Of a stretch of DNA of 64,000 nt, positions 5,705 to 63,196 are shown piece after piece. The position numbers were made by a program, and so were the translations under genes. Each line of letters starts with the position of its first letter. Position 1 is the stretch's first letter. The DNA is taken from NCBI GenBank assembly GCA_043818675.1, contig JBDRFR010000069.1:14877-78876 (forward strand), read 5' to 3'. The DNA is from Nanobdellota archaeon. GTDB lineage: Archaea; Nanobdellota; Nanobdellia; Woesearchaeales; DATDXC01. The notes beneath the pieces were generated by a model that saw nothing but the letters and a program-made list of their open reading frames with translations, searched no databases and was not told where the DNA came from.

Positions 5705-6303
5705 TCAGTGAAATACTGCCGCTTACCAAAAATAAACTTGAGATTTTTAAATATATTTACGAGAAAAAAGGGTCTCATCTTTTGGATATATCAAAAAATC
5801 TAAAAATACACCCTTATAGTGTTCAAAAGACCTTAAAGTCTATTAAGAAATTGTTTGTCGAGAAAAAAGCAGGAAGGACAATTATTTTGTCACTTGATAA
5901 GAACCTTCCAGGTTATTTTGAACTTCTTTATCTAATTGAGGACTATAAGCTTACAATTGATAGTAAAGATTTGAAAATACTGATAAGAAATCTGAAAGAA
6001 TTCTTCTCCAAAGATAAAAATGTGCTAAGTTGTGTTTTGTTTGGGTCATTTGCGCGGAATGTTTCTGGTGAAGATATTGATTTACTATTTTTGGTTAAGA
6101 AGAGATCAGATTATGTTATTGAAAAATGTTCCCAGCTTTCAACATTATTTGGAAAAGAAGTATCTCCTTTAGTCATGTTAGAAAAGGAGTTCAAGTCTGC
6201 TTTACAAAGTAAAGAGCCAACTATTATATCGATATTGGAGCCTTCTCAGCGGCTTTTGGTTGTCGGAAAAGAATACTTTTTGAGGTTTAGTTATGATGGA
6301 TAA
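5701..6303 (+). CDS. wHTH + minimal nucleotidyltransferase (MNT-like) protein (200 aa)
   Basis: NTase signature VLFGSFARNVSGEDIDLLFLV (GS...D-x-D) preceded by a winged-helix-like N-terminus (LEIFKYIYEKKGSHLLDISKNLKIHPYSVQKTLKSI). It is paired with the HEPN gene. Confidence 0.65.
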   Translation: MISEILPLTKNKLEIFKYIYEKKGSHLLDISKNLKIHPYSVQKTLKSIKKLFVEKKAGRTIILSLDKNLPGYFELLYLIEDYKLTIDSKDLKILIRNLKEFFSKDKNVLSCVLFGSFARNVSGEDIDLLFLVKKRSDYVIEKCSQLSTLFGKEVSPLVMLEKEFKSALQSKEPTIISILEPSQRLLVVGKEYFLRFSYDG

Positions 6304-49729: not shown

Positions 49730-50911
49730 ATGGATTTACAATTAATATCAGCAATAATTTTTTCAGTATGTTTGGCTTTTTTTCTTGTATGGAAAAGAAA
49801 AAATTTAGCTGTTCAAAAAATTTTTTTCCCGGTTTTATATTTTGTCATGTATCGCACAAAAATCGGCCTTAAATTAATGGATACTATCTCTAAAAAGTAT
49901 GGAAAATTACTAAAATATTTAGGATATATTGGCATTTTTATTGGATTTTGTGGAATGGTCTTCTTATGTTTTACTTTATCAAAAAATCTGGTGATTTTAT
50001 TAACAAAACCAGAGGCAGCATCTGCTGTTGGCTTGGTTCTTCCTTTCAAGGTCAAAGGAGCATTCTTTGTGCCTTTTTTTTACTGGATAATCTCAATTTT
50101 TGTGCTTGCCGTAGTGCACGAATTTTCACATGGTGTCGTAGCCAGGTATTACGGCTTAAAAATCAAATCAAGCGGTCTTGCATTTTTATGCTTAGTCCTT
50201 CCTGTAATTCCGGCGGCGTTTGTTGAGCCCGACGAAAAAAAAATGGCAAAGCTTTCCACAAAAAAGCAGTTAAGCATTTTTGCAGCTGGCCCATTTTCAA
50301 ACATTATTCTTGCATTTATTGTATTACTATTGTTTAACTTCACACTAGCGCCATTTCTTCAGTCAATGATGTACGAAGACGGTATCAAAATTACCGGTTA
50401 TATTGAAGACAAAACTTATCCTGCGCAGGAAGCAGGCATTGAAATTGGTGAAGTAATAAAAGAAATTAATGGAGCAGAATTCAAAACACTAGACGATTTT
50501 TCAGCATTAATCCAAAATGAAAAGCCAGGTGATCAAATCCAGTTAACAACCAATATCAAAACTTATGATATTACTCTAACAGAAAATCCTGAAGATGAAA
50601 AAAAGGCATATTTGGGTGTTTATTTAATACAAAACTATGAAAAAAAAGACTGGGCAAGAAAAGGTATAGCGTTTTATATTAGTGTATTGACTACCTGGCT
50701 GGGCGGGCTTTTTTATTGGCTTTTTGTTTTAAACCTTGGAATCGGGTTATTCAATCTTATCCCTATTGGTCCGATTGACGGAGGCAGGATGCTGCATGCT
50801 GTATTGTTAAAATATTTCTCTAAGGACAGGGCCCAAAAAATCTGGAAATATACAGGGACTTTCTTTTTCCTTTTAGTTCTTACAAATGTTATGTTTGGTT
50901 TTATTCGATAA
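49730..50911 (+). CDS. site-2 protease (peptidase M50) with PDZ domain
   Basis: HEFSHGVVARYYG (HExxH in a TM helix), a PDZ-like AQEAGIEIGEVIKEINGAEFKTLDDF, and NLIPIGPIDGGRML (NxxPxxxxDG). Confidence 0.85.
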   Translation: MDLQLISAIIFSVCLAFFLVWKRKNLAVQKIFFPVLYFVMYRTKIGLKLMDTISKKYGKLLKYLGYIGIFIGFCGMVFLCFTLSKNLVILLTKPEAASAVGLVLPFKVKGAFFVPFFYWIISIFVLAVVHEFSHGVVARYYGLKIKSSGLAFLCLVLPVIPAAFVEPDEKKMAKLSTKKQLSIFAAGPFSNIILAFIVLLLFNFTLAPFLQSMMYEDGIKITGYIEDKTYPAQEAGIEIGEVIKEINGAEFKTLDDFSALIQNEKPGDQIQLTTNIKTYDITLTENPEDEKKAYLGVYLIQNYEKKDWARKGIAFYISVLTTWLGGLFYWLFVLNLGIGLFNLIPIGPIDGGRMLHAVLLKYFSKDRAQKIWKYTGTFFFLLVLTNVMFGFIR

Positions 50912-50922
50912 GGTTTTAGGAT

Positions 50923-51762
50923 ATGCAAAACATCAAGTCCGAATCAAAAATTGCATGGAAATTATTTAAAGACATTTTGATGCTTCCCGTTAATCTTCTT
51001 CTTCTGGTGTTTGGTAAAAAAAGCATATCAGATGTTTTAAGGCCAGTATCCGACATTTTCAGATTTATATTTGAAGCAAAGGTTACCATTTGGCTGGTCA
51101 TATTAAATATTATTATATATTTTGGAGTTACTTTCCTGTTAATCACTGGCATTATTGAAGAGTCTTTTATCGATTTGTATTTTATTGGGACAACCAGGGG
51201 TTTTTTGAACCTGGATTTCCCGCCTTTAATTGGTTCTTGGTTTTTCCACGCATCAGTCTTTCATTTGTTTGGAAATATGTTATTTTTGTTTATATTAGGA
51301 AGGGTTGTTGAAAAAGAGCTGGGCGGGCCTAAAACTCTGCTTATTTATTTTGGTGCGGCTATTATTTCCACGGTTGCAGACAATTTGGTCCATATTTTCA
51401 TCATACCTATTAAAGATTATGCAGTAGTCGGCGCATCTGGCGCTATTTCAGGTTTAGGCGGTGCAGCATTACTGCTTAGCCCTTTTTACTTAACTTATCT
51501 TGTTGTTGGAATACCATTGCCTATTATTTTTGTGGTTTTGCTTCAGATATACACTGATATTACAGGTGTTTTAAATCCAACATCAAACATTGGCCATATT
51601 GCACATCTAACAGGCTATTTATCTGTTGCAATTACTATGTTTCTTCTTAGCAAAAATGATAGAAATAAAATGAAAAAAGGACTGTTTATATGTATAATTA
51701 CTGTTATAGCGTCTATCTTAGTATTTATATTTGCAAATAGATTTATTGGCCTGCAGATTTAA
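50923..51762 (+). CDS. rhomboid-family intramembrane serine protease
   Basis: FFHASVFHLFGNMLFLFILG, the catalytic GASGAISGL, and IAHLTGYL. Confidence 0.8.
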   Translation: MQNIKSESKIAWKLFKDILMLPVNLLLLVFGKKSISDVLRPVSDIFRFIFEAKVTIWLVILNIIIYFGVTFLLITGIIEESFIDLYFIGTTRGFLNLDFPPLIGSWFFHASVFHLFGNMLFLFILGRVVEKELGGPKTLLIYFGAAIISTVADNLVHIFIIPIKDYAVVGASGAISGLGGAALLLSPFYLTYLVVGIPLPIIFVVLLQIYTDITGVLNPTSNIGHIAHLTGYLSVAITMFLLSKNDRNKMKKGLFICIITVIASILVFIFANRFIGLQI

Positions 51763-51785: not shown

Positions 51786-52526
51786 CTACGTTAATTCTAC
51801 ATAAAAGTAATAAACAGTTGACGCATCATCATCTCCGTTATCTGCAACCAGCATCTGAAAATCCCATATATTTCCGTCAAACCCTACTGTATTTTGGCTG
51901 ACTTCTGTTGCATATATCACTGTATTCTGATTATATTCTGTAAGTATTGTTTCATTAAAATAACTGGTCTGCGCCCCATTATTATCATACGTATTTGTTG
52001 AACGGCAGTTTAGGAGCTCCCTTGTACCGATTGTAATATTGCTGTATCCTCTGAAAGTCTCATCTATTCCGTCACTATCAGAGCTCGCCATGCCGTACAT
52101 TGACTCAAGCGTTGTATGATTGATTCCCTGTGTTCCAATAGAGCCATTGCCGCTAAAGTTTACACAATTAACATTGCCCCAATCTACTACCGTATTGTTT
52201 GCAGCATATATTTCACCGACCGGAGAAAAGCTTGAACCACCTGTCCAATCAAACATTGTATTGCCGCTTGCATCACCAAGGACAACTTTTCCGGAGATAT
52301 TACCATAGTATCCCTGCCATCTTTTTGTAACAATTGTAGTATTAATTGTAAGTTGCGTTACATTGCCTGCCTGTGCTCCAAGAGCCTGCGGATCCCCTGT
52401 TATATTAGTTCTGCTCGTAGTAACATTTTCAATAGAAGTAGGGCCATATGGATTGGCTAGAGTGATAGGTATTAAAATCGCTGCCACTAATAAAATTATT
52501 GCAATTCTTTTCATTGTTGTTTTCAT
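51786..52526 (-). CDS. secreted N-glycosylation-sequon-rich protein, paralogue 1 of 4 (246 aa)
   Basis: Signal peptide MKTTMKRIAIILLVAAILIPITLA. The conserved body is PYGPTSIENVTT...WQGY(Y/F)GNISG.VVLGD..GNTM.DWT..SSFSP.GEIYAAN...VDW..V.C.N..GNGS...GIN...LESM.GM...D.DGIDETF...YYFYVEL. Confidence 0.8.
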   Translation of the reverse strand: MKTTMKRIAIILLVAAILIPITLANPYGPTSIENVTTSRTNITGDPQALGAQAGNVTQLTINTTIVTKRWQGYYGNISGKVVLGDASGNTMFDWTGGSSFSPVGEIYAANNTVVDWGNVNCVNFSGNGSIGTQGINHTTLESMYGMASSDSDGIDETFRGYSNITIGTRELLNCRSTNTYDNNGAQTSYFNETILTEYNQNTVIYATEVSQNTVGFDGNIWDFQMLVADNGDDDASTVYYFYVELT

Positions 52527-52722
52527 TATAGCAAAGGACGTATTTTTACGAATAGCTGCATATCCTCAACAAAAGTGCATTATGTCCGCTATCATATCTG
52601 AAAACAATCACGCTTTCGTTTACATTCACATTTAATTACGTTTACGTTCACAATCCAAAGTAAGCATGAAGGATCTAAGGCAGTTGCCAAAATGTTTTAG
52701 ACACACCCTTAGTCCGTTGAAT

Positions 52723-53460
52723 TTATGCAAGTTCAACATAAAAGTAATATGCTGTCGCAAGTCCGTCACTGCCGTCATCAGCGACGATCATTTGAAAATC
52801 ATAGCTATTGCCATCAAAACCAGTTGCATCCTGGTCAACTTCTGTTGCAAAAATTACAGTCCCTTGAGATCTTTCTGTTAAAAGAGTCTCATTAAAGTAA
52901 GTGCTTTGAGCGCCATTATTATCGTATGTATTTGTTGCATGGCAATTCTGAAGCAGTGTTCCGGCTATTGTAATGTTATTCAAAGTACTAAACGTTTCAT
53001 CAATACCATCATTATCAGAACTTACCATACCAAACATAGATTCAAGTGCTGTTTGATTGATTCCTTGTGTTCCCACAGAACCGTTTCCGCTAAAATTAAC
53101 ACAGATAACATCACCCCAGTCCACAATTGTGTTGTTTGCAGCATAAATTTCTCCAATTGGTGAAAAGCTTGAATCAGCAGTCCAATCATACATTGTATTG
53201 CCGCTTGCATCACCTAAGACCACTCTTCCAGAAATATTACCAAAATAACCTTGCCAATTGCCGGTTGCTTGTGAGATATTAATCTCAAGTTTAGTATTAT
53301 TCCCTCCGTACGCGCCCAGACCCTGCGGAGCTCCCGCACTCGTATTGGTTTTATAAGTAGTTACATTTTCAATGGTTGTTGGCCCCCACGGTGCTGCTGT
53401 TACAACTGAACATAATACACTAATCACTAATAATCCTATGAGTAATATTCTCGTTGTCAT
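52723..53460 (-). CDS. secreted sequon-rich protein, paralogue 2 of 4 (245 aa)
   Basis: Same family. SD GGAGGAA lies directly upstream of the ATG (53460). Confidence 0.8.
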   Translation of the reverse strand: MTTRILLIGLLVISVLCSVVTAAPWGPTTIENVTTYKTNTSAGAPQGLGAYGGNNTKLEINISQATGNWQGYFGNISGRVVLGDASGNTMYDWTADSSFSPIGEIYAANNTIVDWGDVICVNFSGNGSVGTQGINQTALESMFGMVSSDNDGIDETFSTLNNITIAGTLLQNCHATNTYDNNGAQSTYFNETLLTERSQGTVIFATEVDQDATGFDGNSYDFQMIVADDGSDGLATAYYFYVELA

Positions 53461-53497
53461 TTTATTCCTCCATAATTACGCTTTCATTTACATTTGC

Positions 53498-53530
53498 GCA
53501 TAACAAAAATTATGCATGTTCAGCATAAAA
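53498..53530 (-). pseudogene. 33-nt relic of a paralogue 3' end/junction
   Basis: gcataacaaaaattatgcatgttcagcataaaa matches the stop-codon junction gcataacaaaaattatgcaagctcaacataaaa (53577-53609) at 30/33 positions, then diverges. Confidence 0.5.
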
Positions 53531-53588
53531 CTATATTCTTGTCTTCGTTTTTACCCTCATCAATTAAGTTGTGTAGGCATAACAAAAA

Positions 53589-54332
53589 TTATGCAAGCTC
53601 AACATAAAAGTAATAAGCTGTCGCAACTCCATCGCTGCCATCATCAGCAACAATCATCTGAAAGTCCCACTTGTTACCATCATATCCGGTAGCATCCTGG
53701 TCAACTTCTGTTGCAAAAATCACAGTCCCCTGCGATCTTTCTGTCAAAAGTGTTTCATTAAAATAAGTGCTCTGAATGCCGTTATTATCATACGTATTTG
53801 TGGCCCGGCAGTTCTCAACCATTGTTCCGGCTATTGTAATATTATTTATGCCAGTAAACGTTTCATCAATTCCATCTGTGTCTGTCGCACCCATACCATA
53901 CATAGATTCAAGTGTTGTATGATTAATTCCTTGCGATCCAATAGAGCCATTACCGCTAAAATTGACACAGATAACATCACTCCAGTCCACAATTGTTGCA
54001 TTAGCTGCATAAATTTCACCTATTGGTGAAAAGCTTGAACCAGCTGTCCAGTCATACATAGTATTGCCGTTTACATCACCCAAGACAACTTTTCCGGAAA
54101 TGTTACCAAAATAACCCTGCCAATTGCCCGTTGCTTGTGAGATATTAATTTCAAGCTGAGTATTATTCCCTCCATGTGCGCCAAGCGCCTGTGGAGTGCC
54201 GATACTCGTATTAGTTTTATAAGTAGTTACATTTTCAATGGATGTTGGCCCCCATGGTGCAGCCATCACAACCGAACATAATACAGTTATTACAAACAAC
54301 CCCAAAATCATTATTCTGATCTTCATTTTCAT
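53589..54332 (-). CDS. secreted sequon-rich protein, paralogue 3 of 4 (247 aa)
   Basis: Same family. SD GGAGGAA lies upstream. Only 35 nt separate it from paralogue 4. The 5' and 3' ends are nt-identical to paralogue 4 over 53 and 93 nt. Confidence 0.85.
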   Translation of the reverse strand: MKMKIRIMILGLFVITVLCSVVMAAPWGPTSIENVTTYKTNTSIGTPQALGAHGGNNTQLEINISQATGNWQGYFGNISGKVVLGDVNGNTMYDWTAGSSFSPIGEIYAANATIVDWSDVICVNFSGNGSIGSQGINHTTLESMYGMGATDTDGIDETFTGINNITIAGTMVENCRATNTYDNNGIQSTYFNETLLTERSQGTVIFATEVDQDATGYDGNKWDFQMIVADDGSDGVATAYYFYVELA

Positions 54333-54367
54333 TTCCTCCTTTTTATAATTTCAATTCATAACAAAAA

Positions 54368-55120
54368 TTATGCAAGCTCAACATAAAAGTAATAAGCTGT
54401 CGCAACTCCATCGCTGCCATCATCAGCAACAATCATCTGAAAGTCCCACCTGTTACCATCATAACCAACAGTATCCTGGTCAACTTGCGTTGCATAAATT
54501 ACTGTGCCTTGCGTCTTTTCTGTCAAAAGTGTCTCATTAAATTTGGTGGTTTGAACACCATTACTATCATATGTATTGGTCGCCCAACAGTTATCAATCA
54601 ATGTTCCAGCTATTGTAATGTTATTAATGCTGTTAAACGTTTCATCAATTCCATCAGTATCTGCTGCAAGCATACCATACATGGATTCAAGTATTGAATT
54701 GTTAATACCTGGAGGATTTGATCCATCAATAGAGCCGTTTCCAGTCAAGTTAAGACAAATAACGTCACCCCAGTCCACAATTGTTGCATTAGCTGCATAA
54801 ATTTCACCTATTGGTGAAAAGCTTGAACCAGCTGTCCAGTCATACATAGTATTGCCGTTTACATCACCCAGGACAACTTTTCCAGAAATGTTACCAAAAT
54901 AACCCTGCCAGTTACCCGTTGCTTGTGAGATATTGATTTCAAGCTGTGTATTATTTCCCCCGTGTGCGCCCAGCGCCTGTGGAGTGCCGACACTCGTATT
55001 AGTTTTATACGTAGTTACATTTTCAATGGATGTTGGCCCATACGGCGCAGCCATCACAACCGAACATAATACAGTTATTACAAACAACCCCAAAATCATC
55101 ATTCTTATCTTCATTTTCAT
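54368..55120 (-). CDS. secreted sequon-rich protein, paralogue 4 of 4 (250 aa)
   Basis: Same family. I place the start at ATG 55120 (MKMKIRMMILG) with GGAGGAA at 55121-55127. The track ORF extends 36 codons further (to 55228) with no support. Confidence 0.8.
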   Translation of the reverse strand: MKMKIRMMILGLFVITVLCSVVMAAPYGPTSIENVTTYKTNTSVGTPQALGAHGGNNTQLEINISQATGNWQGYFGNISGKVVLGDVNGNTMYDWTAGSSFSPIGEIYAANATIVDWGDVICLNLTGNGSIDGSNPPGINNSILESMYGMLAADTDGIDETFNSINNITIAGTLIDNCWATNTYDSNGVQTTKFNETLLTEKTQGTVIYATQVDQDTVGYDGNRWDFQMIVADDGSDGVATAYYFYVELA

Positions 55121-55248
55121 TTCCTCCTTTTTTAAATTTTTAATAATGTGTAAGCAAAAAAAAAGGGATTCAAGGCAGAAATCAAAAAGACGTGCGAGGT
55201 GTTTTAGATGTTCCCCTTGTTCTCCCAATTAATATAATACTCTAAATT

Positions 55249-55881
55249 TTAGTTATCACCCCTATCCTGGAATATACCTTTAATATCATATAATATTTGA
55301 AAAGAAGACATCTGCCCTTTTTTGATACCTTTTTCAATTTCTTCCGGGGTTATAATTTCCACCCTAAAATTCTTCAATCCCTGGTTTTGTTTTTTTATTG
55401 ATACGTCTTTAATCTTTTTCTCCAGTTCTTTTGGGAATACTGTCCCAATCATAACATCTACGTTATCGCCGCCTGGTCTAATTGCTATTATTTCAATTTT
55501 GGATAAATAATCTTCAATGCCCCAGACAAATTTTTCAATGTAATATTGGAATTCTTGATCAGGCAGAAACATAATCTTAAACAAAATTTTATGCATACCA
55601 TCAACTTTTACTAGTTTTTTATCGGCAAACCCGTTCATTATAGAAATAACATAAGCATAATCCTCAGGGATATAAAATAGTGTTCTTGGCTTTCCTTTAT
55701 CTCTGTTTGGTATTTTCTTTTTTTTGACCATGTTTGAAAATTCCAGAAGTCTTAATTGTTGGCTGATATTTGCCATTGTAGTGCTTGACTTTTCTGCAAG
55801 CTGCAAAGGAGAAAATTTACCTTTTGCAAGTTCTCTTAGAATATTCCACTTCTGTTCTGTGAATAATGTTACAAGGTCCAT
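55249..55881 (-). CDS. winged-helix (ArsR-like) transcriptional regulator with a C-terminal domain (210 aa)
   Basis: QKWNILRELAKGKFSPLQLAEKSSTTMANISQQLRLLEFSNMVKKKK is an ArsR/HTH_20-like pattern. It lies directly upstream of, and co-oriented with, the four-gene array. Confidence 0.6.
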   Translation of the reverse strand: MDLVTLFTEQKWNILRELAKGKFSPLQLAEKSSTTMANISQQLRLLEFSNMVKKKKIPNRDKGKPRTLFYIPEDYAYVISIMNGFADKKLVKVDGMHKILFKIMFLPDQEFQYYIEKFVWGIEDYLSKIEIIAIRPGGDNVDVMIGTVFPKELEKKIKDVSIKKQNQGLKNFRVEIITPEEIEKGIKKGQMSSFQILYDIKGIFQDRGDN

Positions 55882-56077: not shown

Positions 56078-56085
56078 AAAAAAAA
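56078..56085 (-). terminator. oligo-T (T8) run after the ATPase operon
   Basis: On the minus strand the sequence reads TAA TTAATCTTCTA TTTTTTTT ATTATTTT, starting 12 nt after the stop at 56097. Archaeal terminators are typically T-runs. Confidence 0.35.
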
Positions 56086-56096
56086 TAGAAGATTAA

Positions 56097-58421
56097 TTAT
56101 TTATACAGGCTATCTTCAATAACTGCGATTGTATCTTCTTTTGTTTTTGCTGCTCGGAGTTTTTCTGCTGTCTCTTTATCTGACCCCATGATCCAGTCTG
56201 CAAAAATATTTTCAGATTCAGATGCATGCGCTGCATACGTTCCTTCATCCATAGTATTGATTTCATCAATCAATTCCTGCGGCGATGATACGGTAACTCC
56301 GTTCTTAAGCTTCAATGGTGGCAGCTTTTTTTGTTCTTTTTTCTTTTCTTGTTTTGCAGCTGCTTTTTTTGCCTCTTCTGGATGTTCTTTTTCGAATTTT
56401 TCCCTTTCTTTTTTAGCCTTTTCAAATTCTTCCTGCAATTCTTTTTCAGAAACAAGCTTCAGTTTTCTCTTCTTAGCTTGTTTGCCAATTTTATCCCATG
56501 CAGTGTCAAGCCTAGGTTTTAAGCCTTCCAGATAAATATCAACCATGTTAAAACTGCCAGACTTAACTTTATCAAGCGCCATCTTAAGTTCCAGTTTTAG
56601 ATCAAAAATATCAACCTCTTCCTCTCTAAGCTGTTCAATCTGATCATCCAGATCGTCTATTATATCATTATACTTATTGTAATTATCAAGTTCTTCGTCT
56701 GTTAATCTTGCATGTTCATGTAAAAGAGGCCTAAAACTTACAAAATAAGGATTGCCTCTGTTATATGCAGAATTTGAAATCATCCCTGTGCCTGTTGCAG
56801 ACTTCAGTAGAGATTGCAGCATGTAAGACCCATATTTATCTTTTATCCTGTTCAAATCGCCTTCATCACGTGTACGCATTTGAATTTCTGTATTAATATT
56901 TGCTTTTGTTTCACCTATAAAATCTGTCAGAACCTGGCTGATCAACACAAGGCCGACCCCCCATTTTCTAAATTCTCTTGCGCCTCTTTCAATTTGGATA
57001 AAACCCTGTCCGGTTCCGCCGAATTTTGGCAGCAGTCTGTGAACCTCGTCAAAAATTACAATAAGCCTTAATTGCGGGCTTTCTGGCAGGTCGGCGTGAA
57101 ATACTTCTCTGATTGTATTGGCTACAAGTATATCACTGTCTTTGGGATCAAGTTTATTGATAGCAAAAACGTGAATTTCACCAGGAATTAAGTATTTTTT
57201 TATATCAATGATCTGGCGAGCATCCATAATCTGGTGCACATTCCCGTTAAATGCTCTTGCATCCGTTTTCTTGAGTCCGTAACTAGGATACAAAGCTATC
57301 ATTTTTTTATTCGTGCATTTTCTAAGAAAGCCTGTCCACTGCGCTGTTGGGTCAAACACTATAATCGCAACTCCTTTTAACAGCGCTTCTTCTACAAGAA
57401 CTTCCGCAGAAACTGTCTTTCCACCGCCTGTTGAACCGGCAATTAGGCTGTGAATTGTCAGCTGATCCATATCAAAATACGCTTTAACTTTTGATTCAGC
57501 AATTTTTCCGATAAGAATCGACCGCTCGCCAGGTTTTGGCAGCAATTTAAAGTCAATTTTACCTTTATATCTTTTCTTTTTAGCAAGCCTTTTGCGTATT
57601 ATTAAAAATACTAATGCAGCTATTGCAAGAAAAGATAGTGTTAATAACAGCCATCTCACAGGCATTATCCCAAAAATCAGATAATCCCATATCGGTTCAC
57701 TTACTAAGAATCTCGCGCTTGCAGTTGATGATATCCCCAGATAATCCACGCGAGCTGTAATTACATACTCACCCGGTCTGATAAATTCAGGTACTTCAAA
57801 AAATTTTATAAGAGTTGTTGACTTATTAAGTCTTAAGTTCTCAGTTTCTTCCAGAAAAGTTTTGTTGACCAGATAAGTTTTTTTATCTGCCATGCTGTCA
57901 ATCGAATAATGCAAAGTAATATTAAATCCATCTTTCAATAAAAGATTATGAATATTAATCTTATACCTTAAAGTATCCTTAAGATATACTCTTTCTGATA
58001 ATGGCTCAACTTTGATAGAAATTGCGCTAATAGGAACTCCGCTAATATCCCCTACTGTTAGCATTGCAGGTATTCTTTCATTGACATTTCCGGATAAGAC
58101 TAATGTTCCGTTAAAAAAACCCATGTTATCAGCAAAAAATAAAATTTTGGCATCTGCACTTGATTTTGCCTCAAGATTAATAGTCGTCACATCAGGCACC
58201 ATATAACTGCTGATGTTGCCCTCTGATGAAAACATTACCGTTATTGGATTATCGCCTTTATTTTCAATGGTAAGCACATGCTCTTCGAATTTGCCTATTT
58301 TAACATTTTTAATTATTATATCATCCGATATTCGATAATTGCTATTTTCAATTTGTGCAGCAACATTTATAGACATTAATATTACTATTATTACTATCGC
58401 AAAACCTCTATTTTTTATCAT
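56097..58421 (-). CDS. ectodomain-TM-FtsK/HerA-type ATPase (774 aa), stand-alone paralogue of the giant protein C-terminus
   Basis: Signal/anchor MIKNRGFAIVIIVILMSINVAA, a ~240-aa ectodomain, and TM LLLTLSFLAIAALVFLII followed by RKRLAKKKRYK. Walker A AGSTGGGKT lies at 57414-57440. Also present: FDPTAQWTGFLRKC, Walker B IVIFDEVHRLLP, REFRKWGVGLVLISQ, and a K/E-rich coiled-coil tail. Confidence 0.85.
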   Translation of the reverse strand: MIKNRGFAIVIIVILMSINVAAQIENSNYRISDDIIIKNVKIGKFEEHVLTIENKGDNPITVMFSSEGNISSYMVPDVTTINLEAKSSADAKILFFADNMGFFNGTLVLSGNVNERIPAMLTVGDISGVPISAISIKVEPLSERVYLKDTLRYKINIHNLLLKDGFNITLHYSIDSMADKKTYLVNKTFLEETENLRLNKSTTLIKFFEVPEFIRPGEYVITARVDYLGISSTASARFLVSEPIWDYLIFGIMPVRWLLLTLSFLAIAALVFLIIRKRLAKKKRYKGKIDFKLLPKPGERSILIGKIAESKVKAYFDMDQLTIHSLIAGSTGGGKTVSAEVLVEEALLKGVAIIVFDPTAQWTGFLRKCTNKKMIALYPSYGLKKTDARAFNGNVHQIMDARQIIDIKKYLIPGEIHVFAINKLDPKDSDILVANTIREVFHADLPESPQLRLIVIFDEVHRLLPKFGGTGQGFIQIERGAREFRKWGVGLVLISQVLTDFIGETKANINTEIQMRTRDEGDLNRIKDKYGSYMLQSLLKSATGTGMISNSAYNRGNPYFVSFRPLLHEHARLTDEELDNYNKYNDIIDDLDDQIEQLREEEVDIFDLKLELKMALDKVKSGSFNMVDIYLEGLKPRLDTAWDKIGKQAKKRKLKLVSEKELQEEFEKAKKEREKFEKEHPEEAKKAAAKQEKKKEQKKLPPLKLKNGVTVSSPQELIDEINTMDEGTYAAHASESENIFADWIMGSDKETAEKLRAAKTKEDTIAVIEDSLYK

Positions 58422-61400
58422 TTTGACAGTTTCTCTCTCAACTCACCGCATTTCTTAATAACTTCTGATTTATACTCCGGAACAATTTTTTTGTAAATCT
58501 CATTGACTTTGTGATAAATTTCAACTGCTTCAGTTCGCTTATTATTTTCCAATTTGGATATGGCTTTGTCAATAAGGCTCTTGATATGAAACACATCCAG
58601 TTTATATGATAATGCCACAACACTTTGATAGACTTCTTTTCTCATCTCCTTTGGAAGTTTAGAATATGAACTCTGTGAATCCAGATATAGCGATTTGGCC
58701 CGATCATATTTCCCGTCATTAAGCTCTTTTTTAGCATTTTCAATGTTATTTTTTATACTGTCAACATTCTTTAAAGATGCCCGATCCAGAATATGATATT
58801 TAATATTAGTTCCTTTTAGAGTATAACCAAGGTACAAAAGTACAAGAATAATTATAACAAAAACCTCAATAACAATCCGTCTATCGCTTGTCGTAACGAA
58901 TTTTGACTTAAGATTATCGATTACTGCAAACCCGGTAATTGGCGAGAGTTCTGGTTTTTGGCCAGGATCCATAATCACAGAAACTGTAGTTTGTATTTTT
59001 TCCAGCTCAATTTCATCTTGAACGTAATAAGCAATACTTTCCGCTTCTTCTAAGCTAAGCTCAATAATGGGATCTTCTTCAATTACACTGTATTCAAACA
59101 TAAATTCAATATCATTAACGCTTTCTGCTATTTCTTTTGGGATATATTCAATCATAATATATCCATTCGAATCCAAGTCCAGGCTAAAAGCTTTTTCAAC
59201 CAGTGTATATCTCTCTTTATCATTGGATAAATATTCCAACTCAACCACAAAAGCTTTGGTTGTGACTGTCAGAAGTGATTGAAGTTTAGAATTTTGCTCA
59301 ACTACATTATTAATTTCCCTTTTTGTATATTTCTTATTTTTTTTATTCAAATACGCTAATGTTAGATTCCTGATCTCTTCTGCCTTAGGATACACAACAA
59401 ACTCCTTTGAGTCCAGAACTTTCAGGTCGGTGGGTATTGCATCCCGGATATTTGCGATTTCTGCATATATTGCATTTTCTTCCTTTTCATACTCAGTATC
59501 ATTCAGTTTTCTCCATATTAGATTGTTTAAGTCTCTTTTATATCGTGTAAGTTTAACTTTTGATTTGTCAAGTTTGACAAAAATCCCAAGAATATCCATA
59601 ACCTCTTTTTCAGTTTTGCCCTTTTTTTGAAATTCCTGATAAATTTGGTCAATTTTTGAGATCAGCGGATCAATCTCTGTGTTATCCTTATTTAACGTTT
59701 TCCCGAATAAATAAACAATAAATGTCCTTGTAGAGCTTATCTCAGAATTTCCGTGTTCATCTGTGCATTTAATTCTATACTCATAGCTTCCATTCTGAAG
59801 AGAAGTTATGCTAAATTTGTTCTCAGAGCCTTTTAAAACATTGCTTTGGCTCTCCTTTTCTATCCACCAGCTGCTATGTTCATTGATATTAAGCGCGCAA
59901 TCCACATTAGACTGATCTTCCACTCGATACAATATTTCAACACTGGTTCCTTCAATTCGCTGTTGGTCTGGTGGATTTAACAATGTTACAACAGGCCCTT
60001 TTTTGTCATTTGTATCAATTGACAAATTCACATAAAGAGTTGTATCCGCAAAAACTCTTACACTATCGTTTATATAAGTATTATAGCCGTCATGTTTCAC
60101 TTTTAATTTATACGTGCCGTAATACACCAAAAAACTGGTTTTGCCTTCCGATGTTGTATTCTTGATAACAGTATCAAACTCTACATCAGCATTTCCCACA
60201 TTTTGTTTAGAGACATTATTAACAATGATTGTAACATTGAACCTTTTTTTGACAATGATTGTTTCAATATCTGATGCCTTTTGCGCGCTGTCTGTTACAG
60301 TTAGGTTTACTTTATAAGTTCCATTTGTTGCATATGTTTTTACAAGTTCAGATGAATAGCTGTCAATAGACTTATCATTTGAAATATCCCATTGATAGGT
60401 AAGTGATCCTGTATGCCCGCTTACTATCGGAACAAATTTAACAGTTTCCCCTTCATTTATTGTGGTTTTATTGGCGCTGATCTGCACGCTGAGCGTTGAT
60501 GTGGGTGGATAAACAATAAAGCTTACTATTTTACTTTCACTATTTCCTTTGTAATACGATGTTGCATTCAGGGTATATGTGCTAGGCGAATTAATATTAT
60601 CAAGAATAGTTGTTACGTATATTGGATAATCCGAAGAATAGCCGGTTATTGACTTCCTGCTTACAACAGATCCGCCTGTTTTAACAGTCATATTGACTAT
60701 AGAATTCGCTCTTGATATGATTGTTGCTGCGATATCTTCACCTAATTCATAATTACTTTTATCCAGACTAATTGAAAAGCCTACACAATTGCCGCATTGT
60801 CCGCCGCAATCAATGCCTGTTTCACCACCGTTTTTAATACCGTCTAAACACGTTGCAGAATAACTAAAACTAAAAGAATAGCTGTATAGTTGATTATTGC
60901 CCTGCATATCAGTAGCATTTATTAAAAGAATATTTGCACCTGTCTTTAATTCCAATGTGATTGATTTTTCTTTGCCAAAATATGCCTCAGTGCTGTACTG
61001 TCCATTATTCAACTTATATGAGATAAACGCATATTCATTTGGCCGCAGCTTTAGATTGGTAATATTGCTGGAATTAGTTACTACACTATTATTCACAGGA
61101 ATGCTATTATAAGTTAGGTTTATTTTAGGAGCCGCATCATCATTAACGCTAAAACTATAATTGTATGTCAATATATTGGAATTATTATCATTAAGGCTGA
61201 TTGTTACAATATGTGCACCATTTTCAATCACGCCATTAGAAAAGCTGCCATTAAGTAGCACTGAAAAAGTTTTTGACTCAGGCAATGCTGCATATCTCTG
61301 ATTTTTAAACGATATATTTGCATATACAGGGATATCAGTTGAAAAGTTCAGATAAACATTTTCCCCGCATTTCAAAGGGCTGACGGGTGAATTGATTGTC

Positions 61401-62446
61401 AAATTTAGTTCAGACATATTAAGCGCCACAATTATTGATGAAAAGTGTGAAACATATACTTCCAGCTTATCTCCATTTTTGTGATAGCATCCTTGCGCTC
61501 CAAAATCACATTCAGGCAGTTTAACACATTCAAACGAGTCTGAACAATGCAGAACTTGGTTATAGATAATTCCCGTTATATTAAATTCCACGCGTCCCTG
61601 GTATCCTTCCTCAAGTATAACTTTCTCGATACCGCTAACTTCTATCGACTTTCGGACTATTGATCCCAAATTTTCAATATGATTTCTTAAATTCTCATCT
61701 TCTTTACTGATAGTTATTTTATCCAACTCTTCAAATTGAATATTATTGCTCTTAAAATTTTCAATACTGACAATATCACCTCCGTGGTACATATCCAGCC
61801 TCAGGTTTTGATTATGAAAATCTGATACAGCCGAACCCCCCTTTAAGTCTGTAAGTGAGATTTTACTAAGCTTATTATTTTTCTTCAGCCTCTCCAGTTT
61901 TTCAATCACAGAAAATTCTTTACTCGAAGGCTGCTTTCCATTAAAATAATCTTCATCAAGAAATACCGCATATAGATAATCATAATTACTGTAATATATT
62001 TCTGAATAGGGGTTTTCTGAGCTTACCGAATAATCAACATATAATACTCGCGCGCTCACCTTATTATTAACCGACGCATCATATTGCCCGTAATTAAGAT
62101 AAAAAATATCATTCCATTTATTCTTAGTTGCAGTAAGTCCAATAAAATTACAGCAAACATTGTTCCCATAACAAACTGTTGTCATTTTGTTTGTATCAAC
62201 GGACAATATTTCCCATCTTGTGCACAGCTTATTTTTGTTAAGATCCCAGTTGAACTCTGTATCTTCAACAGTAAAGTCAATTACACTTTTATCACCTTCA
62301 ACCCCGTCAGAATTATTGTCATAATATTTATCATTCTGATATTTAAGATTAATCTGAATTTTTTCAGATTCTGCGCAAATTACAGAAAGATTAAGCGCTA
62401 TCATTAGTAAGATTAGACAGCCCAAAATCTTAGAGTATTTCTTCAT
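58418..62446 (-). CDS. large surface protein (1342 aa): signal, Cys-rich conserved domain, Ig/PKD-like modules, C-terminal TM and helical cytoplasmic tail
   Basis: Signal MKKYSKILGCLILLMIALNLSVICA. The Cys-rich domain is shared with the 751-aa protein. A CLDGIKNGGETGIDCGGQCGNC motif lies at approx 60785-60852. A PKD-like module is present. The TM RIVIEVFVIIILVLLYLGY is followed by a ~150-aa helical tail. ATGA overlaps occur at both ends (62443-62446 and 58418-58421). Confidence 0.85.
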   Translation of the reverse strand: MKKYSKILGCLILLMIALNLSVICAESEKIQINLKYQNDKYYDNNSDGVEGDKSVIDFTVEDTEFNWDLNKNKLCTRWEILSVDTNKMTTVCYGNNVCCNFIGLTATKNKWNDIFYLNYGQYDASVNNKVSARVLYVDYSVSSENPYSEIYYSNYDYLYAVFLDEDYFNGKQPSSKEFSVIEKLERLKKNNKLSKISLTDLKGGSAVSDFHNQNLRLDMYHGGDIVSIENFKSNNIQFEELDKITISKEDENLRNHIENLGSIVRKSIEVSGIEKVILEEGYQGRVEFNITGIIYNQVLHCSDSFECVKLPECDFGAQGCYHKNGDKLEVYVSHFSSIIVALNMSELNLTINSPVSPLKCGENVYLNFSTDIPVYANISFKNQRYAALPESKTFSVLLNGSFSNGVIENGAHIVTISLNDNNSNILTYNYSFSVNDDAAPKINLTYNSIPVNNSVVTNSSNITNLKLRPNEYAFISYKLNNGQYSTEAYFGKEKSITLELKTGANILLINATDMQGNNQLYSYSFSFSYSATCLDGIKNGGETGIDCGGQCGNCVGFSISLDKSNYELGEDIAATIISRANSIVNMTVKTGGSVVSRKSITGYSSDYPIYVTTILDNINSPSTYTLNATSYYKGNSESKIVSFIVYPPTSTLSVQISANKTTINEGETVKFVPIVSGHTGSLTYQWDISNDKSIDSYSSELVKTYATNGTYKVNLTVTDSAQKASDIETIIVKKRFNVTIIVNNVSKQNVGNADVEFDTVIKNTTSEGKTSFLVYYGTYKLKVKHDGYNTYINDSVRVFADTTLYVNLSIDTNDKKGPVVTLLNPPDQQRIEGTSVEILYRVEDQSNVDCALNINEHSSWWIEKESQSNVLKGSENKFSITSLQNGSYEYRIKCTDEHGNSEISSTRTFIVYLFGKTLNKDNTEIDPLISKIDQIYQEFQKKGKTEKEVMDILGIFVKLDKSKVKLTRYKRDLNNLIWRKLNDTEYEKEENAIYAEIANIRDAIPTDLKVLDSKEFVVYPKAEEIRNLTLAYLNKKNKKYTKREINNVVEQNSKLQSLLTVTTKAFVVELEYLSNDKERYTLVEKAFSLDLDSNGYIMIEYIPKEIAESVNDIEFMFEYSVIEEDPIIELSLEEAESIAYYVQDEIELEKIQTTVSVIMDPGQKPELSPITGFAVIDNLKSKFVTTSDRRIVIEVFVIIILVLLYLGYTLKGTNIKYHILDRASLKNVDSIKNNIENAKKELNDGKYDRAKSLYLDSQSSYSKLPKEMRKEVYQSVVALSYKLDVFHIKSLIDKAISKLENNKRTEAVEIYHKVNEIYKKIVPEYKSEVIKKCGELREKLSK
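60245..60485 (-). other. PKD-like domain in the 1342-aa protein
   Basis: INEGETVKFVPIVSGHTGSLTYQWDISNDKSIDSYSSELVKTYATNGTYKVNLTVTDSAQKASDIETIIV. Confidence 0.65.
61960..62330 (-). other. conserved Cys-rich domain (copy 2 of 2 in window)
   Basis: See 3253-3630. The shared strings are LCTRW, TVCYG, CCNFIGL and FYLNYG. Confidence 0.7.
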
Positions 62447-62748
62447 TTACTAGCCTCAATCTTAAGTTGATTTTTGATCTCATTTAATTCACTGACCACT
62501 TTCTTAGTGACTTCTTTTTCACTCTTTTTTCTAATTTCATCCATGATATCCTTTCTTAATCTTGCAACCTCTGCAAGTTCTGGATACATCGATTTTAGCC
62601 AATTTTTTCTGGTAATGCTCCTAATCTTTTCACTAACGTCCATATAGTGCTCTTTTTCAGCGAGCTCTTTAAGTTTAGACAATAATGATTCAGGCATCCT
62701 TACAGAAACCAGGACATCACTCAAACAAATCACCCTTATCACAAACAC
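62443..62748 (-). CDS. RHH (CopG-like) DNA-binding protein
   Basis: VLVSVRMPESLLSKLKELAEKEHYMDVSEKIRSITRKNW has a strand followed by two helices. The real start is probably TTG 62724 or ATG 62697 rather than the track GTG 62748. The stop overlaps the 1342-aa gene start. Confidence 0.55.
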   Translation of the reverse strand: MFVIRVICLSDVLVSVRMPESLLSKLKELAEKEHYMDVSEKIRSITRKNWLKSMYPELAEVARLRKDIMDEIRKKSEKEVTKKVVSELNEIKNQLKIEASK

Positions 62749-62869
62749 TGTCTCTGGAAAATTCCCTGATAGCTTCAGCTCTGCTTTTATATACCCCTTT
62801 AGAAACCATATAATCCAGCCATTCCACTATTTCTTTTGACAATCTTATGTTAAAAATAGCCACTTTCAT
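62717..62869 (-). CDS. RHH/CopG-family DNA-binding protein (50 aa)
   Basis: Below the ORF-track cutoff. My own translation is MKVAIFNIRLSKEIVEWLDYMVSKGVYKSRAEAIREFSRDSVCDKGDLFE, which matches the classic CopG pattern (.v.v.L..e....LD.lv..g.y.SRSEaIRea). Confidence 0.65.
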   Translation of the reverse strand: MKVAIFNIRLSKEIVEWLDYMVSKGVYKSRAEAIREFSRDSVCDKGDLFE

Positions 62870-63196
62870 TTTGTATTCACAATGATATTTATTGTATGCC
62901 CCTTGTATTTTAATTAATCATTTAAATATTTTTCGGTATTATTACAAACGATTAGTTAAATTAAGAGATAATTTGTAATTGAAATAATACTTATATGTAT
63001 GTTATATGTAATTCAAATAAAGATTATATAAACCTTTTGATTTTAGATAAATTCCAACATATTAATCAAATTATTAATCAAATAAATAAATTAAGTAATT
63101 AATAAATCAGTTAATTATAATAAAAATTTTTCATATGAATATTGAAATTCATCAAATATACATAATTTTAAATATTAGATAACCCTAACAAGCTTA

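What the first reader, a model, noticed from the sequence alone, without database searches (positions are those of the whole stretch)
56097..62869. Compact minus-strand operon RHH - RHH - 1342-aa surface protein - 774-aa ectodomain/TM/ATPase: a miniature version of the giant system
Seen: four co-oriented genes show translational coupling. The 50-aa RHH stop (62717) overlaps candidate starts of the second RHH. ATGA overlaps occur at 62443-62446 and 58418-58421. A T8 run lies 12 nt after the last stop. The 1342-aa protein is type I (signal, long ectodomain, TM, ~150-aa helical cytoplasmic tail). The 774-aa protein has a short ectodomain, a TM and the HerA/FtsK-type ATPase. Inference: the tight coupling suggests a stoichiometric two-component apparatus, with an adhesin whose cytoplasmic tail could dock on the ATPase or its coiled coil. 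It is the likely ancestral form from which the 12,098-aa fusion expanded.
Basis: partly seen in the sequence, partly recalled or inferred. Interest (0 to 1): 0.72.

Follow-up and report, generated by a model that had tools for sequence, protein, structure and literature searches.

The report
Split mini SPEARE-like adhesin–ATPase operon
This is a real four-gene operon, strictly conserved in tiny symbiotic (DPANN) archaea, that pairs a sugar-coated surface protein with a membrane-anchored HerA-type motor ATPase; it is a small, two-gene version of the poorly understood giant "SPEARE"-type surface proteins and so gives a tractable way to study them.

Summary
Four co-oriented minus-strand genes (RHH1, RHH2, a 1342-aa type-I surface glycoprotein and a 774-aa type-I membrane HerA-class ATPase) overlap at every junction. 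The only T8 run in the region follows the last stop.

In public archaeal genomes the surface-protein gene lies directly upstream of the ATPase in 50 of 58 informative loci. Both RHH genes precede it in 49 of 49.

The family has three architectures:
- A: this operon.
- B: the same cassette with a ~1300-aa ATPase plus a coiled-coil gene downstream.
- G: 2,500–12,098-aa proteins with the same TM–ATPase–coiled-coil C-terminus, the coiled-coil gene downstream, and no RHH or surface-protein partner.

The window's 12,098-aa ORF is class G. It has the architecture published for nanohaloarchaeal SPEARE giants.

The "ancestral form of a fusion" reading is not supported: the giant has no surface-protein-derived segment, and its ATPase groups with other giants.

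Function is inferred, not shown. The likeliest is an adhesin-coupled, ATP-driven envelope or translocation machine acting at host contacts. I class it as a new variant of a known kind.

The parts
62717..62869 (-). RHH1: 50-aa ribbon-helix-helix (CopG/NikR-N type) protein, first gene of the operon
   Evidence: ORF. Pfam RHH_1 19.5 bits in the window copy; orthologues score 26-32 bits, above the 20.5 cut-off. Present upstream of the surface-protein gene in 49/49 testable loci.
62443..62724 (-). RHH2: 93-aa divergent RHH with a ~50-aa helical C-terminal extension. The start is revised to TTG 62724 and overlaps the RHH1 stop by 8 nt.
   Evidence: The conserved N-terminal beta-strand 'DVIVSVRMP' in orthologues lies upstream of the internal ATG. 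With the revised start: Pfam RHH_1 19.4 bits and Arc 18.1 bits. hhalign RHH1 vs RHH2 gives probability 96%, E 2.8e-9. Its stop overlaps the surf ATG in nearly all loci.
58418..62446 (-). 1342-aa type-I surface glycoprotein ('surf'): signal peptide, variable head, Ig/PKD stalk, membrane-proximal domain, TM, cytoplasmic helical tail
   Evidence: ORF. PKD 44 bits. Hydropathy and sequons. Homologue directly upstream of the ATPase in 50/58 loci. Conserved core is aa ~360-1342.
61958..62365 (-). surf aa 28-163: Cys-rich N-terminal 'head' domain, also found in ORF 2878-5133 and in other large surface proteins
   Evidence: 48.5% identity to ORF 2878-5133 aa 118-251. Hits covering only ~10% of the query at 41-52% identity to unrelated 745-1928-aa proteins. 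Absent from class-B surface proteins.
60254..60487 (-). surf aa 654-731: PKD domain
   Evidence: Pfam PKD E 2.1e-11, PKD_4 E 1.3e-10.
58970..59683 (-). surf aa 922-1159: conserved membrane-proximal ectodomain (helical bundle plus alpha/beta domain)
58802..58900 (-). surf aa 1183-1215: single transmembrane helix
   Evidence: Hydropathy 2.64; helix in the AF2 model.
58421..58801 (-). surf aa 1216-1342: 127-aa all-helical cytoplasmic tail, the candidate docking element for the ATPase
   Evidence: AF2 helices, pLDDT 78-92. Occupancy >=0.95 across 55 family members. Only weak TPR/MIT-like hints. Docking is inferred, not tested.
56097..58421 (-). 774-aa type-I membrane-anchored HerA-class P-loop ATPase
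57699..58337 (-). ATPase aa 29-241: ectodomain of two Ig-like (PapD/ASH/CARDB-like) beta-sandwiches; carries all 5 sequons
57576..57683 (-). ATPase aa 247-282: transmembrane helix
   Evidence: Hydropathy 2.78; AF2 helix 255-282.
56733..57521 (-). ATPase aa 301-563: RecA-type HerA/VirB4-class NTPase core (Walker A K335, Walker B D458/E459, the R482-E-F-R-K-W-G488 motif)
56334..56699 (-). ATPase aa 575-696: long cytoplasmic helices / coiled coil
   Evidence: AF2 helices 575-600, 606-621, 624-645, 659-696. Homologous to the giant ORF up to its residue 12059.
56103..56282 (-). ATPase aa 714-773: small helical C-terminal domain with a DUF5752-like 'H..N.FADW' motif
   Evidence: AF2. DUF5752 passes its threshold in long-class relative P0095 (26.1 vs 23 bits) but is only E 0.11 in the window copy. 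Consensus.
56078..56085 (-). T8 run, candidate archaeal oligo-T terminator ending the operon
   Evidence: Sequence. It is the only T>=8 run on this strand in 55.2-63.3 kb. Function inferred.
62919..62931 (-). Candidate TATA-like element (aaatatttaaatg) ~55 nt upstream of the RHH1 ATG
   Evidence: Read from the sequence. Inference only: the region is ~80% A+T and the sigma-70 scan is irrelevant to archaea.

Best explanation
What is shown. This is one conserved operon of Nanoarchaeota/Woesearchaeota-type DPANN archaea. It encodes:
- two paralogous ribbon-helix-helix proteins;
- a Sec-exported, heavily N-glycosylatable type-I surface protein, made of a variable head, an Ig/PKD stalk, a conserved membrane-proximal domain, one TM and a conserved helical cytoplasmic tail;
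- a type-I membrane protein with two Ig-like ectodomains, one TM, a catalytically intact HerA/VirB4-class ATPase, a coiled coil and a small C-terminal domain.

The ATPase protein is a minimal member of the family that includes the window's 12,098-aa ORF. The domain order (signal, ectodomain, TM, VirB4/HerA-like ATPase, coiled coil) matches the one published for nanohaloarchaeal SPEARE giants. Where the ATPase protein's own ectodomain is short (classes A and B), a separate surface protein is always encoded immediately upstream. Where it is giant (class G), that partner and the RHH genes are absent.

What is inferred. The RHH pair, probably as a heterodimer, autoregulates the operon. The ATPase forms a hexameric ring under the membrane, held by six TM helices with a collar of Ig domains outside. 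The surface protein stands next to it, with its tail engaging the ATPase or its coiled coil. Together they form an adhesin-coupled, ATP-driven envelope machine at host contact sites. The likeliest job is to power translocation of a macromolecule (DNA or polypeptide) across the symbiont membrane, or to remodel the adhesin mechanically. In effect this is a split, miniature SPEARE-type system.
For: - Operon anatomy and overlaps.
- Topology, with sequons confined to the predicted ectodomains.
- Conserved partnership: surf directly upstream in 50/58 loci, 38 of them overlapping or within 40 nt. RHH1 and RHH2 in 49/49. The surf tail is retained in both classes.
- Relation to giants: 44% identity over 606 aa. 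The giant's nearest relatives are 2.5-6.3-kaa proteins with the module at the C-terminus. Three further giant loci lack any RHH. The two with about 9 kb of upstream sequence also have no surf orthologue directly upstream, and all three keep the coiled-coil gene downstream.
- Published SPEARE architecture and its proposed adhesion/secretion role: PMC10266531, section 11.
- Chromosomal, housekeeping context: aRF1, RFC-like, S2P and rhomboid in the window; gyrB, SRP54, MCM and DnaJ next to giants.
Against: - No experiment or expression data exist for any member.
- Physical contact between the surface-protein tail and the ATPase was not testable, because no multimer prediction was available.
- The tail and the membrane-proximal domain give only generic helical fold matches.
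- No channel-forming polytopic membrane protein, pilin or other secretion component is in the operon, so a translocation path through the membrane is not evident.
- The surface protein carries its own Sec signal, so it does not need the ATPase for export.
- Sequence homology to actual SPEARE proteins could not be tested, since no SPEARE sequence was available. The link rests on identical architecture and on the same weak ResIII-type match that led to SPEARE's original misannotation.
- SPEARE loci are reported to have a second VirB4-like ATPase downstream. Here the downstream partner of the giant is a P-loop-less coiled-coil protein.
- 8 of 58 loci lack the partner. These include a separate ~780-aa clade plus some artefacts of my filter.
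Confidence: 0.5

Rival explanations
1. Envelope biogenesis or maintenance machine. The surface protein is the cell's S-layer-like coat protein. The ATPase is its dedicated assembly, anchoring, quality-control or extraction motor, acting on the single-pass TM and tail much as VirB4 dislocates membrane pilin. It would have no role in moving cargo to a host.
For: - The surface protein has the archaeal S-layer hallmarks: Sec signal, many sequons, Ig/PKD domains and a C-terminal TM anchor.
- The cassette is near-universal and chromosomal.
- VirB4 is among the closest folds.
- No channel component is present in the operon.
Against: - Several paralogous cassettes occur per genome or contig.
- Head domains are highly variable and ectodomains range from 0.2 to 11.6 kaa. 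This looks more like diversifying interaction surfaces than a structural coat.
- S-layer proteins are not otherwise known to need a dedicated HerA-type ATPase.
Confidence: 0.2
2. FtsK-like chromosome or DNA pump. The membrane-anchored HerA-class hexamer translocates DNA for segregation, division or DNA uptake. The RHH proteins act as DNA-loading adaptors, as RHH accessory proteins do for conjugative coupling ATPases. The surface protein only positions the pump.
For: - The closest solved relatives are dsDNA translocases: HerA and DptH, then TrwB and FtsK further off.
- The best NCBIfam hit, though far below its cut-off, is the DNA-translocating ATPase CedD.
- Two DNA-binding RHH proteins are invariably co-encoded.
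- The 'TM then ATPase' topology resembles FtsK and type IV coupling proteins.
Against: - All family-specific thresholds are missed by a wide margin: CedD 34.6 vs 600 bits; FtsK_SpoIIIE 16.6 vs 24; TrwB_AAD_bind 19.1 vs 20.5.
- There is no FtsK gamma domain, no HAS barrel, no NurA, and no pilin or VirB6-like partner.
- A division or segregation motor would not be expected to carry ectodomains of up to 11,600 aa, nor to exist as several paralogues per genome.
- RHH genes at the head of an operon are most simply autoregulators.
Confidence: 0.15
3. Mobile-element or anti-virus defence module built on HerA (conjugation, virus packaging, or a HerA-effector defence system).
For: Weak matches to PADLOC mad8 (E 2e-15) and HerA models, and to PHROG families including a terminase and an FtsK-like protein. 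A HEPN/nucleotidyltransferase pair lies elsewhere in the window.
Against: - No nuclease, Sir2, methylase, integrase, relaxase, capsid gene or tRNA target lies in or next to the operon.
- The other three proteins have no defence hits.
- The cassette is conserved in gene order across dozens of species and sits among housekeeping genes.
- Composition is not atypical for the window.
Confidence: 0.05

Closest known systems
SPEARE / 'giant membrane-anchored extracellular proteins' of Nanohaloarchaeota (Hamm et al. 2019; re-analysed in Front Microbiol 2023, PMC10266531)
   Same: - Identical domain order: Sec signal, Ig-rich ectodomain, single TM, cytoplasmic VirB4/HerA-like P-loop ATPase, C-terminal coiled coil (one search compared).
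- DPANN host lineage.
- The same spurious ResIII-type match.
- The window's own 12,098-aa ORF has this architecture and is a 44%-identical paralogue of the 774-aa ATPase.
   Different: - Here the ectodomain on the ATPase protein is only ~220 aa, and the long adhesin-like part is a separate type-I protein with its own TM and cytoplasmic tail.
- Two RHH genes head the operon.
- No second VirB4-like ATPase lies downstream.
- The lineage is Woesearchaeota/Nanoarchaeota, not Nanohaloarchaeota.
- Direct sequence homology to SPEARE was not tested.
HerA (archaeal/bacterial DNA end-resection and defence-associated hexameric translocase)
   Different: - No HAS-barrel N-domain: only ~45 residues separate the TM from the P-loop.
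- It is membrane-anchored, with an ectodomain.
- No NurA, Mre11/Rad50, Sir2 or DUF4297 partner.
- NCBIfam HerA equivalogs score 15-31 bits against cut-offs of 800-970.
VirB4 / type IV coupling proteins (TrwB/VirD4) of type IV secretion, and the archaeal Ced/Ted DNA-import ATPases
   Same: - Membrane association.
- Coupling proteins also have N-terminal TM segments followed by the NTPase.
- RHH accessory proteins accompany conjugative coupling ATPases (established knowledge).
   Different: - No VirB4 N-terminal domain.
- TrwB_AAD_bind is below threshold (19.1 vs 20.5 bits).
- No pilin, VirB6/CedA-like channel, relaxase or other T4SS gene is present.
- CedD scores 34.6 bits against a cut-off of 600.
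EssC/EccC of type VII secretion
   Same: A membrane-anchored FtsK/HerA-superfamily ATPase that works with single-pass membrane partners bearing extracellular domains. Operons there also begin with small helical proteins.
   Different: - One ATPase domain, not three.
- The small proteins here are RHH, not WXG100.
- There are no EssA/EssB/EsaA homologues.
- This is an analogy only.

Membership tests
SPEARE-type giant surface ATPase proteins | N-terminal Sec signal and extracellular Ig-like domains | tested here: met
   Hydrophobic N-terminus at aa 1-27. Two Ig-like sandwiches at aa 29-241, carrying all the sequons.
SPEARE-type giant surface ATPase proteins | Single TM followed by a cytoplasmic VirB4/HerA-like ATPase and a C-terminal coiled coil | tested here: met
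   TM at 247-282, NTPase core at 301-563, long helices at 575-696.
SPEARE-type giant surface ATPase proteins | Giant size (thousands of residues) in a single polypeptide | tested here: not met
   The ATPase protein is 774 aa, and the adhesin-like part is a separate 1342-aa gene. The window's 12,098-aa paralogue does meet this feature.
SPEARE-type giant surface ATPase proteins | Sequence homology of the ATPase domain to bona fide SPEARE proteins (Nanohaloarchaeum antarcticus, SVXNc_0300) | not testable with these tools
   No SPEARE sequence could be retrieved. Named relatives found are from Woese-, Pace-, Aenigm-, Alti- and Hadarchaeota.
HerA helicase (HerA-NurA type) | Passes curated HerA equivalog models; N-terminal HAS barrel; NurA or another nuclease partner | tested here: not met
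   NCBIfam HerA models score 15-31 bits against cut-offs of 800-970. No domain lies between the TM and the P-loop. No nuclease gene is in the operon. Only the central DUF87 domain passes (46 vs 23 bits).
VirB4 / type IV secretion system | VirB4 N-terminal domain (CagE_TrbE_VirB) and co-encoded pilin/VirB6-like components | tested here: not met
   No such Pfam match at E<=0.01. TraC scores 25 bits against a cut-off of 567. The operon holds only the RHH genes, the surface protein and the ATPase.
Type IV coupling protein (TrwB/VirD4/TraD) | T4CP-specific NTPase/all-alpha domain models above threshold; relaxase/oriT context | tested here: not met
   [not shown]
FtsK/SpoIIIE | FtsK_SpoIIIE motor domain above threshold, polytopic N-terminal anchor, gamma (KOPS-binding) domain | tested here: not met
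   [not shown]
Ced/Ted archaeal DNA import | CedD/CedB equivalog score; CedA/CedA1/A2 membrane partners | tested here: not met
   CedD scores 34.6 bits against a cut-off of 600, over the P-loop region only. No polytopic membrane partner.
Ribbon-helix-helix (CopG/Arc/MetJ) DNA-binding proteins | N-terminal beta-strand plus two helices matching RHH profiles | tested here: met
   RHH1 orthologues score 26-32 bits against the 20.5 cut-off; the window copy scores 19.5. RHH2 copies score 17-22 bits. RHH1/RHH2 profile-profile probability is 96%.
HerA-based anti-phage defence systems (PADLOC) | HerA model hit plus the cognate effector (Sir2, DUF4297, nuclease, MADS partners) | tested here: not met
   The ATPase gives only weak hits (mad8 55 bits; HerA at most 48 bits). 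The surface protein and both RHH proteins give none, and the two neighbouring genes also scanned (ORF 43858-44919, ORF 55249-55881) give only marginal hits at E about 2e-3 to 3e-3 to models unrelated to any HerA effector (LmuB, CARF). No effector gene is present.

The most novel reading that the evidence does not exclude
The cassette and its giant relatives would together be a previously unrecognised, archaea-specific class of contact-dependent envelope machine. It would be built from a single-pass, membrane-anchored HerA/VirB4-class hexameric motor plus an adhesin that is either separate (classes A and B) or built in (class G, SPEARE-like). The adhesin reach would be tuned from 0.2 to 11.6 kaa to match host envelopes. 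The 774-aa + 1342-aa pair would be the minimal working unit through which DPANN cells move DNA or protein to or from their hosts.
Probability: 0.3. Interest if true: 0.85.

Novelty: new variant of a known kind. Interest (0 to 1): 0.6.

Why it matters
How DPANN archaea attach to and exploit their hosts is an open problem. The giant SPEARE-type proteins are prime suspects, but they are close to intractable: 9-12 kaa, uncultured hosts, and disputed annotation. This operon shows that the same TM-ATPase-coiled-coil motor also exists in a 774-aa form, paired with a separately encoded 1342-aa surface protein, in gene order conserved across the archaeal genomes surveyed. That gives three things:
- a minimal pair small enough for AlphaFold-Multimer, heterologous expression, ATPase and substrate assays, and cryo-EM;
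- a natural comparative series (A, B, G) in which ectodomain length and the presence of a partner trade off, which predicts what the ectodomain and the partner do;
- a defined regulatory handle, the RHH pair.

It also corrects database annotation, which currently reads 'DUF87', 'DUF853', 'PKD domain protein' or 'helicase HerA-like'.

Tried and rejected
- The sigma-70 promoter and hairpin-terminator scan does not apply to archaea and showed no enrichment (43 sites found vs 38.6 expected; 0 hairpin terminators).
- tRNA scan of the window: none found, so there is no integration-site signal.
- The predicted archaeal secretion system of Makarova et al. 2015 (arCOG01314/arCOG02884) uses MoxR AAA+ ATPases. 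It is a different system.
- The 'Dark matter islands' paper lists HerA-like arCOG00280 only as virus-associated. Iyer et al. 2004 is not in the held library.
- A 2026 preprint on 208 complete Nanobdellota genomes mentions none of HerA, DUF87, VirB4 or giant genes.
- Fold search of the surface protein's membrane-proximal domain and tail returned only generic helical bundles.
- AFDB Foldseek was unavailable.
- The word-indexed protein search with the giant's C-terminus returned mostly fragments. The exhaustive representative search was needed to see the giant clade.
- Short direct repeats upstream of RHH1 (a 26-nt pair 33 nt apart; ATTAATCAAAT twice, 12 nt apart) could be operators. In ~80% A+T DNA they are not distinguishable from chance, so I make no claim.
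- The idea that ORF 43858-44919 is the 'second VirB4-like ATPase' of SPEARE loci is rejected. It is a coiled-coil protein with no P-loop and no significant family or PDB match.
- A first, mis-framed domain-scan call failed and was repeated.
Full report
**1. The observation**

The region 56097-62869 holds four co-oriented minus-strand ORFs of 50, 85-101, 1342 and 774 aa.
- The RHH2/surf junction is an ATGA at 62443-62446. The surf/ATPase junction is an ATGA at 58418-58421.
- A T8 run at 56078-56085 begins 12 nt after the last stop. It is the only T>=8 run on the coding strand between 55.2 and 63.3 kb; 0.2 are expected inside the operon.
- Orthologues of the second small gene share the N-terminus 'M-x-D-V-I-V-S-V-R-M-P'. 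That places the window's start at TTG 62724, giving a 93-aa protein that overlaps the RHH1 stop (62717-62719) by 8 nt.

**2. The parts**

*RHH proteins.* The window RHH1 scores just under the Pfam RHH_1 threshold (19.5 vs 20.5 bits), but five orthologues score 26-32 bits. RHH2 is a divergent paralogue of RHH1 (hhalign probability 96%, E 2.8e-9) with a ~50-aa helical extension.

*The 774-aa ATPase.*
- Topology: signal (aa 1-27), a ~220-aa ectodomain carrying all five of its sequons, and a TM at aa 247-282.
- Motifs: Walker A at 329 and Walker B at 454.
- Model: the AF2 model (pLDDT 85.4) shows two Ig-like sandwiches, the TM helix, a RecA-type core, long helices at 575-696 and a small helical C-terminal domain.
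- Sequence profile: a family profile matches only HerA chains in the PDB.
- Conservation: catalytic residues are invariant across 60 homologues.

It is not a canonical HerA, VirB4, coupling protein, FtsK or CedD. The family-specific models are missed by wide margins, and the defining accessory domains and partner genes are absent.

**3.

The exact protein is annotated 'Nanoarchaeota archaeon'. The window is archaeal, with aRF1 and an RFC-like gene. Eighty loci from species-representative genomes were fetched. Nearly all are labelled Woesearchaeota, Nanoarchaeota or Pacearchaeota, apart from generic 'archaeon' labels, many 'uncultured Methanosarcinales' labels and a few bacterial or Euryarchaeota ones, which look like mislabelled MAGs.
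- Among 58 loci with at least 4 kb upstream of the ATPase ORF, 50 have a surf homologue directly upstream on the same strand. Of these junctions, 25 overlap (mostly -4, -8 or -11) and 13 are 0-40 nt apart.
- All 49 loci with a complete surf ORF and at least 700 nt upstream have both RHH1 and RHH2 in the same order, by profile search. The RHH2 stop overlaps the surf start almost everywhere.
- The conserved core of surf is aa ~360-1342, including the TM and the whole tail (occupancy >=0.95). The N-terminal ~340 aa are variable. The Cys-rich head (aa 28-163) recurs in ORF 2878-5133 and in unrelated large surface proteins.

**4. Three architectures**

| Class | ATPase protein | Upstream | Downstream |
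|---|---|---|---|
| A (this operon) | ~775 aa | RHH1-RHH2-surf (~1350 aa) | no 353-like gene (0/20 loci) |
| B | ~1300 aa: extra CarboxypepD_reg-like ectodomain plus C-terminal TPR/DUF5752 | RHH1-RHH2-surf (~1000 aa) | homologue of window ORF 43858-44919 in 33/47 loci |
| G | 2,500-12,098 aa | no RHH, no surf orthologue | 353-like gene immediately after |

ORF 43858-44919 is a coiled-coil protein with no P-loop. Classes A and B can sit in tandem on one contig.

Class G rests on the following. An exhaustive search with the giant's C-terminal 659 aa found 390 representative clusters at E<=1e-30. The nearest (47-57% identity) are mostly 2,500-6,253-aa proteins carrying the module at their C-terminus. 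Named members come from Woesearchaeota, Pacearchaeota and Hadarchaeales. Three such loci (3,865, 4,862 and 6,253 aa) lie among housekeeping genes. None has an RHH1 or RHH2 homologue, and all have the 353-like gene immediately downstream. The two with about 9 kb of upstream sequence have no surf orthologue directly upstream, although one of them (the 6,253-aa locus) has a divergently transcribed 934-aa CARDB/fn3 protein that matches the surf profile at E 6e-16, which I read as generic Ig-domain similarity. The third locus has only 1.5 kb upstream. The window has the same layout: giant 7519-43815, then ORF 43858-44919.

**5. Testing the 'fusion / ancestral' idea**

A surf-family profile finds nothing in the giant at E<=1. 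The giant has only two hydrophobic segments, the N-terminal signal and aa 11614-11638. It is therefore an ATPase-family protein whose own ectodomain is enormous, not a surf+ATPase fusion. Its ATPase module is about equally distant (44-47%) from classes A and B and branches separately. Which form is ancestral cannot be said. What the data do show is a complementary pattern: a separate surface-protein partner, with RHH genes, accompanies short-ectodomain ATPases and is missing from giants. This suggests, by inference, that the partner and the giant ectodomain do equivalent jobs.

**6. Comparison with the literature**

The closest described entities are the SPEARE giant surface proteins of Nanohaloarchaeota. 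A 2023 re-analysis describes them as Sec signal, Ig/beta-propeller ectodomain, TM, cytoplasmic VirB4/TraG-like ATPase and terminal coiled coil. It proposes adhesion plus a type-IV-like secretion 'straw', and attributes the earlier 'restriction endonuclease' call to a helicase-type match (PMC10266531). That is exactly the architecture of the window's giant and, in miniature, of the 774-aa protein, which shows the same weak ResIII match. Direct homology to SPEARE sequences could not be tested here.

**7. Mechanism**

Shown: the architecture, topology, intact ATPase motifs, conserved gene partnership and chromosomal context.

Inferred:
- RHH1 and RHH2 autoregulate the operon.
- The ATPase forms a sub-membrane hexamer tethered by six TM helices, with an external Ig collar.
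- The surface protein's conserved tail contacts the ATPase or its coiled coil.
- ATP hydrolysis drives either translocation of a macromolecule or mechanical remodelling of the adhesin at host contacts.

I put about 0.5 on this adhesin-coupled motor model. The substrate is unknown.

Rivals:
- A dedicated coat-protein assembly or extraction motor (0.2).
- An FtsK/coupling-protein-like DNA pump with the RHH proteins as adaptors (0.15).
- A mobile-element or defence module (0.05). This is disfavoured by context and by PADLOC and PHROG results.

Weak points: the operon has no channel component, no interaction test was possible, and no expression data exist.

**8. Verdict**

The operon is real and strongly conserved. 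It is a new, split and miniature variant of a known but functionally unresolved kind, the SPEARE-type surface ATPase proteins. The 'ancestral fusion' story does not. Interest is moderate to high, because the compact pair makes the SPEARE question experimentally and computationally tractable.

Noticed in passing
window 43858-44919 (+): A 353-aa coiled-coil protein with no P-loop, TM, Pfam or PDB match lies directly after the giant ORF. Homologues follow 33/47 long-class ATPases and all three other giant-type genes examined, but 0/20 short-class ones. It is a conserved, unannotated partner of the long and giant systems.
   Followed up: partly
window 7519-43815 (+), about aa 1780-2170 (nt ~12860-14030): A segment of the 12,098-aa ORF starts 'C-YDNETEILT' and ends '...VVLVRR...SCHN|S'. 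It gives weak Intein_splicing and Hint_2 matches (18 bits, below threshold) around an S/N/L-rich low-complexity core. It may be a degenerate intein or Hint insertion in a surface protein.
   Followed up: partly
window 2482-2881 (+) and 2878-5133 (+): Two tandem paralogous LuxR/GerE-type small HTH genes (72 and 63 aa) sit upstream of a 751-aa signal-anchored, sequon-rich protein; the second overlaps it by ATGA. That protein shares the Cys-rich head domain with the 1342-aa protein, and its C-terminal domain matches the N-terminus of a 6,253-aa giant (L083). The layout 'two small DNA-binders + surface protein' echoes the RHH operon but uses a different fold.
   Followed up: partly
window 51786-55228 (-) and 55249-55881 (-): Four tandem paralogues (62-86% identical) of a ~246-aa secreted, sequon-rich protein with no family match lie downstream of an ArsR-like HTH gene (210 aa). 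The same HTH + secreted-protein pair follows the ATPase in the closest class-A loci (L001-L003, L015) and lies within ~10 kb in several class-B loci.
   Followed up: partly
window 5201-6303 (+): An overlapping HEPN (167 aa) and minimal nucleotidyltransferase (200 aa, with an N-terminal HTH) pair sits between the 751-aa gene and the giant gene. It is a toxin-antitoxin-like module of a type noted as unusually conserved in DPANN (PMC6393860).
   Followed up: no
window 6293-7225 (+): A 310-aa ORF immediately upstream of the giant gene has an N-terminal CxxC...CxxC zinc-ribbon-like motif and no significant family match.
   Followed up: no
window 49730-51762 (+): Adjacent intramembrane protease genes: a site-2 protease (Peptidase_M50 with PDZ, 393 aa) and a rhomboid (279 aa). 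They lie between the giant locus and the secreted-protein paralogues, and might be relevant to processing single-pass surface proteins.
   Followed up: no
loci L070, L072, L074, L078: A separate clade of ATPases (three of ~780 aa, one of 1,249 aa) lacks the surface-protein gene directly upstream. L070, L072 and L074 have surf-like genes on the opposite strand nearby; L078 has none. This may be a fourth arrangement.
   Followed up: no
window 62971-63029 and 63061-63083: Direct repeats lie in the A+T-rich region upstream of RHH1: a 26-nt pair 33 nt apart, and ATTAATCAAAT twice with 12-nt spacing. They could be RHH operator sites but cannot be told apart from chance at this composition.
   Followed up: partly
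protein P0275 cluster: Giant-type members of this ATPase family (5,203-7,818 aa) occur in Hadarchaeales, which are not DPANN. One is annotated 'PGF-pre-PGF domain-containing protein' and another 'predicted phage tail protein'.
   Followed up: no
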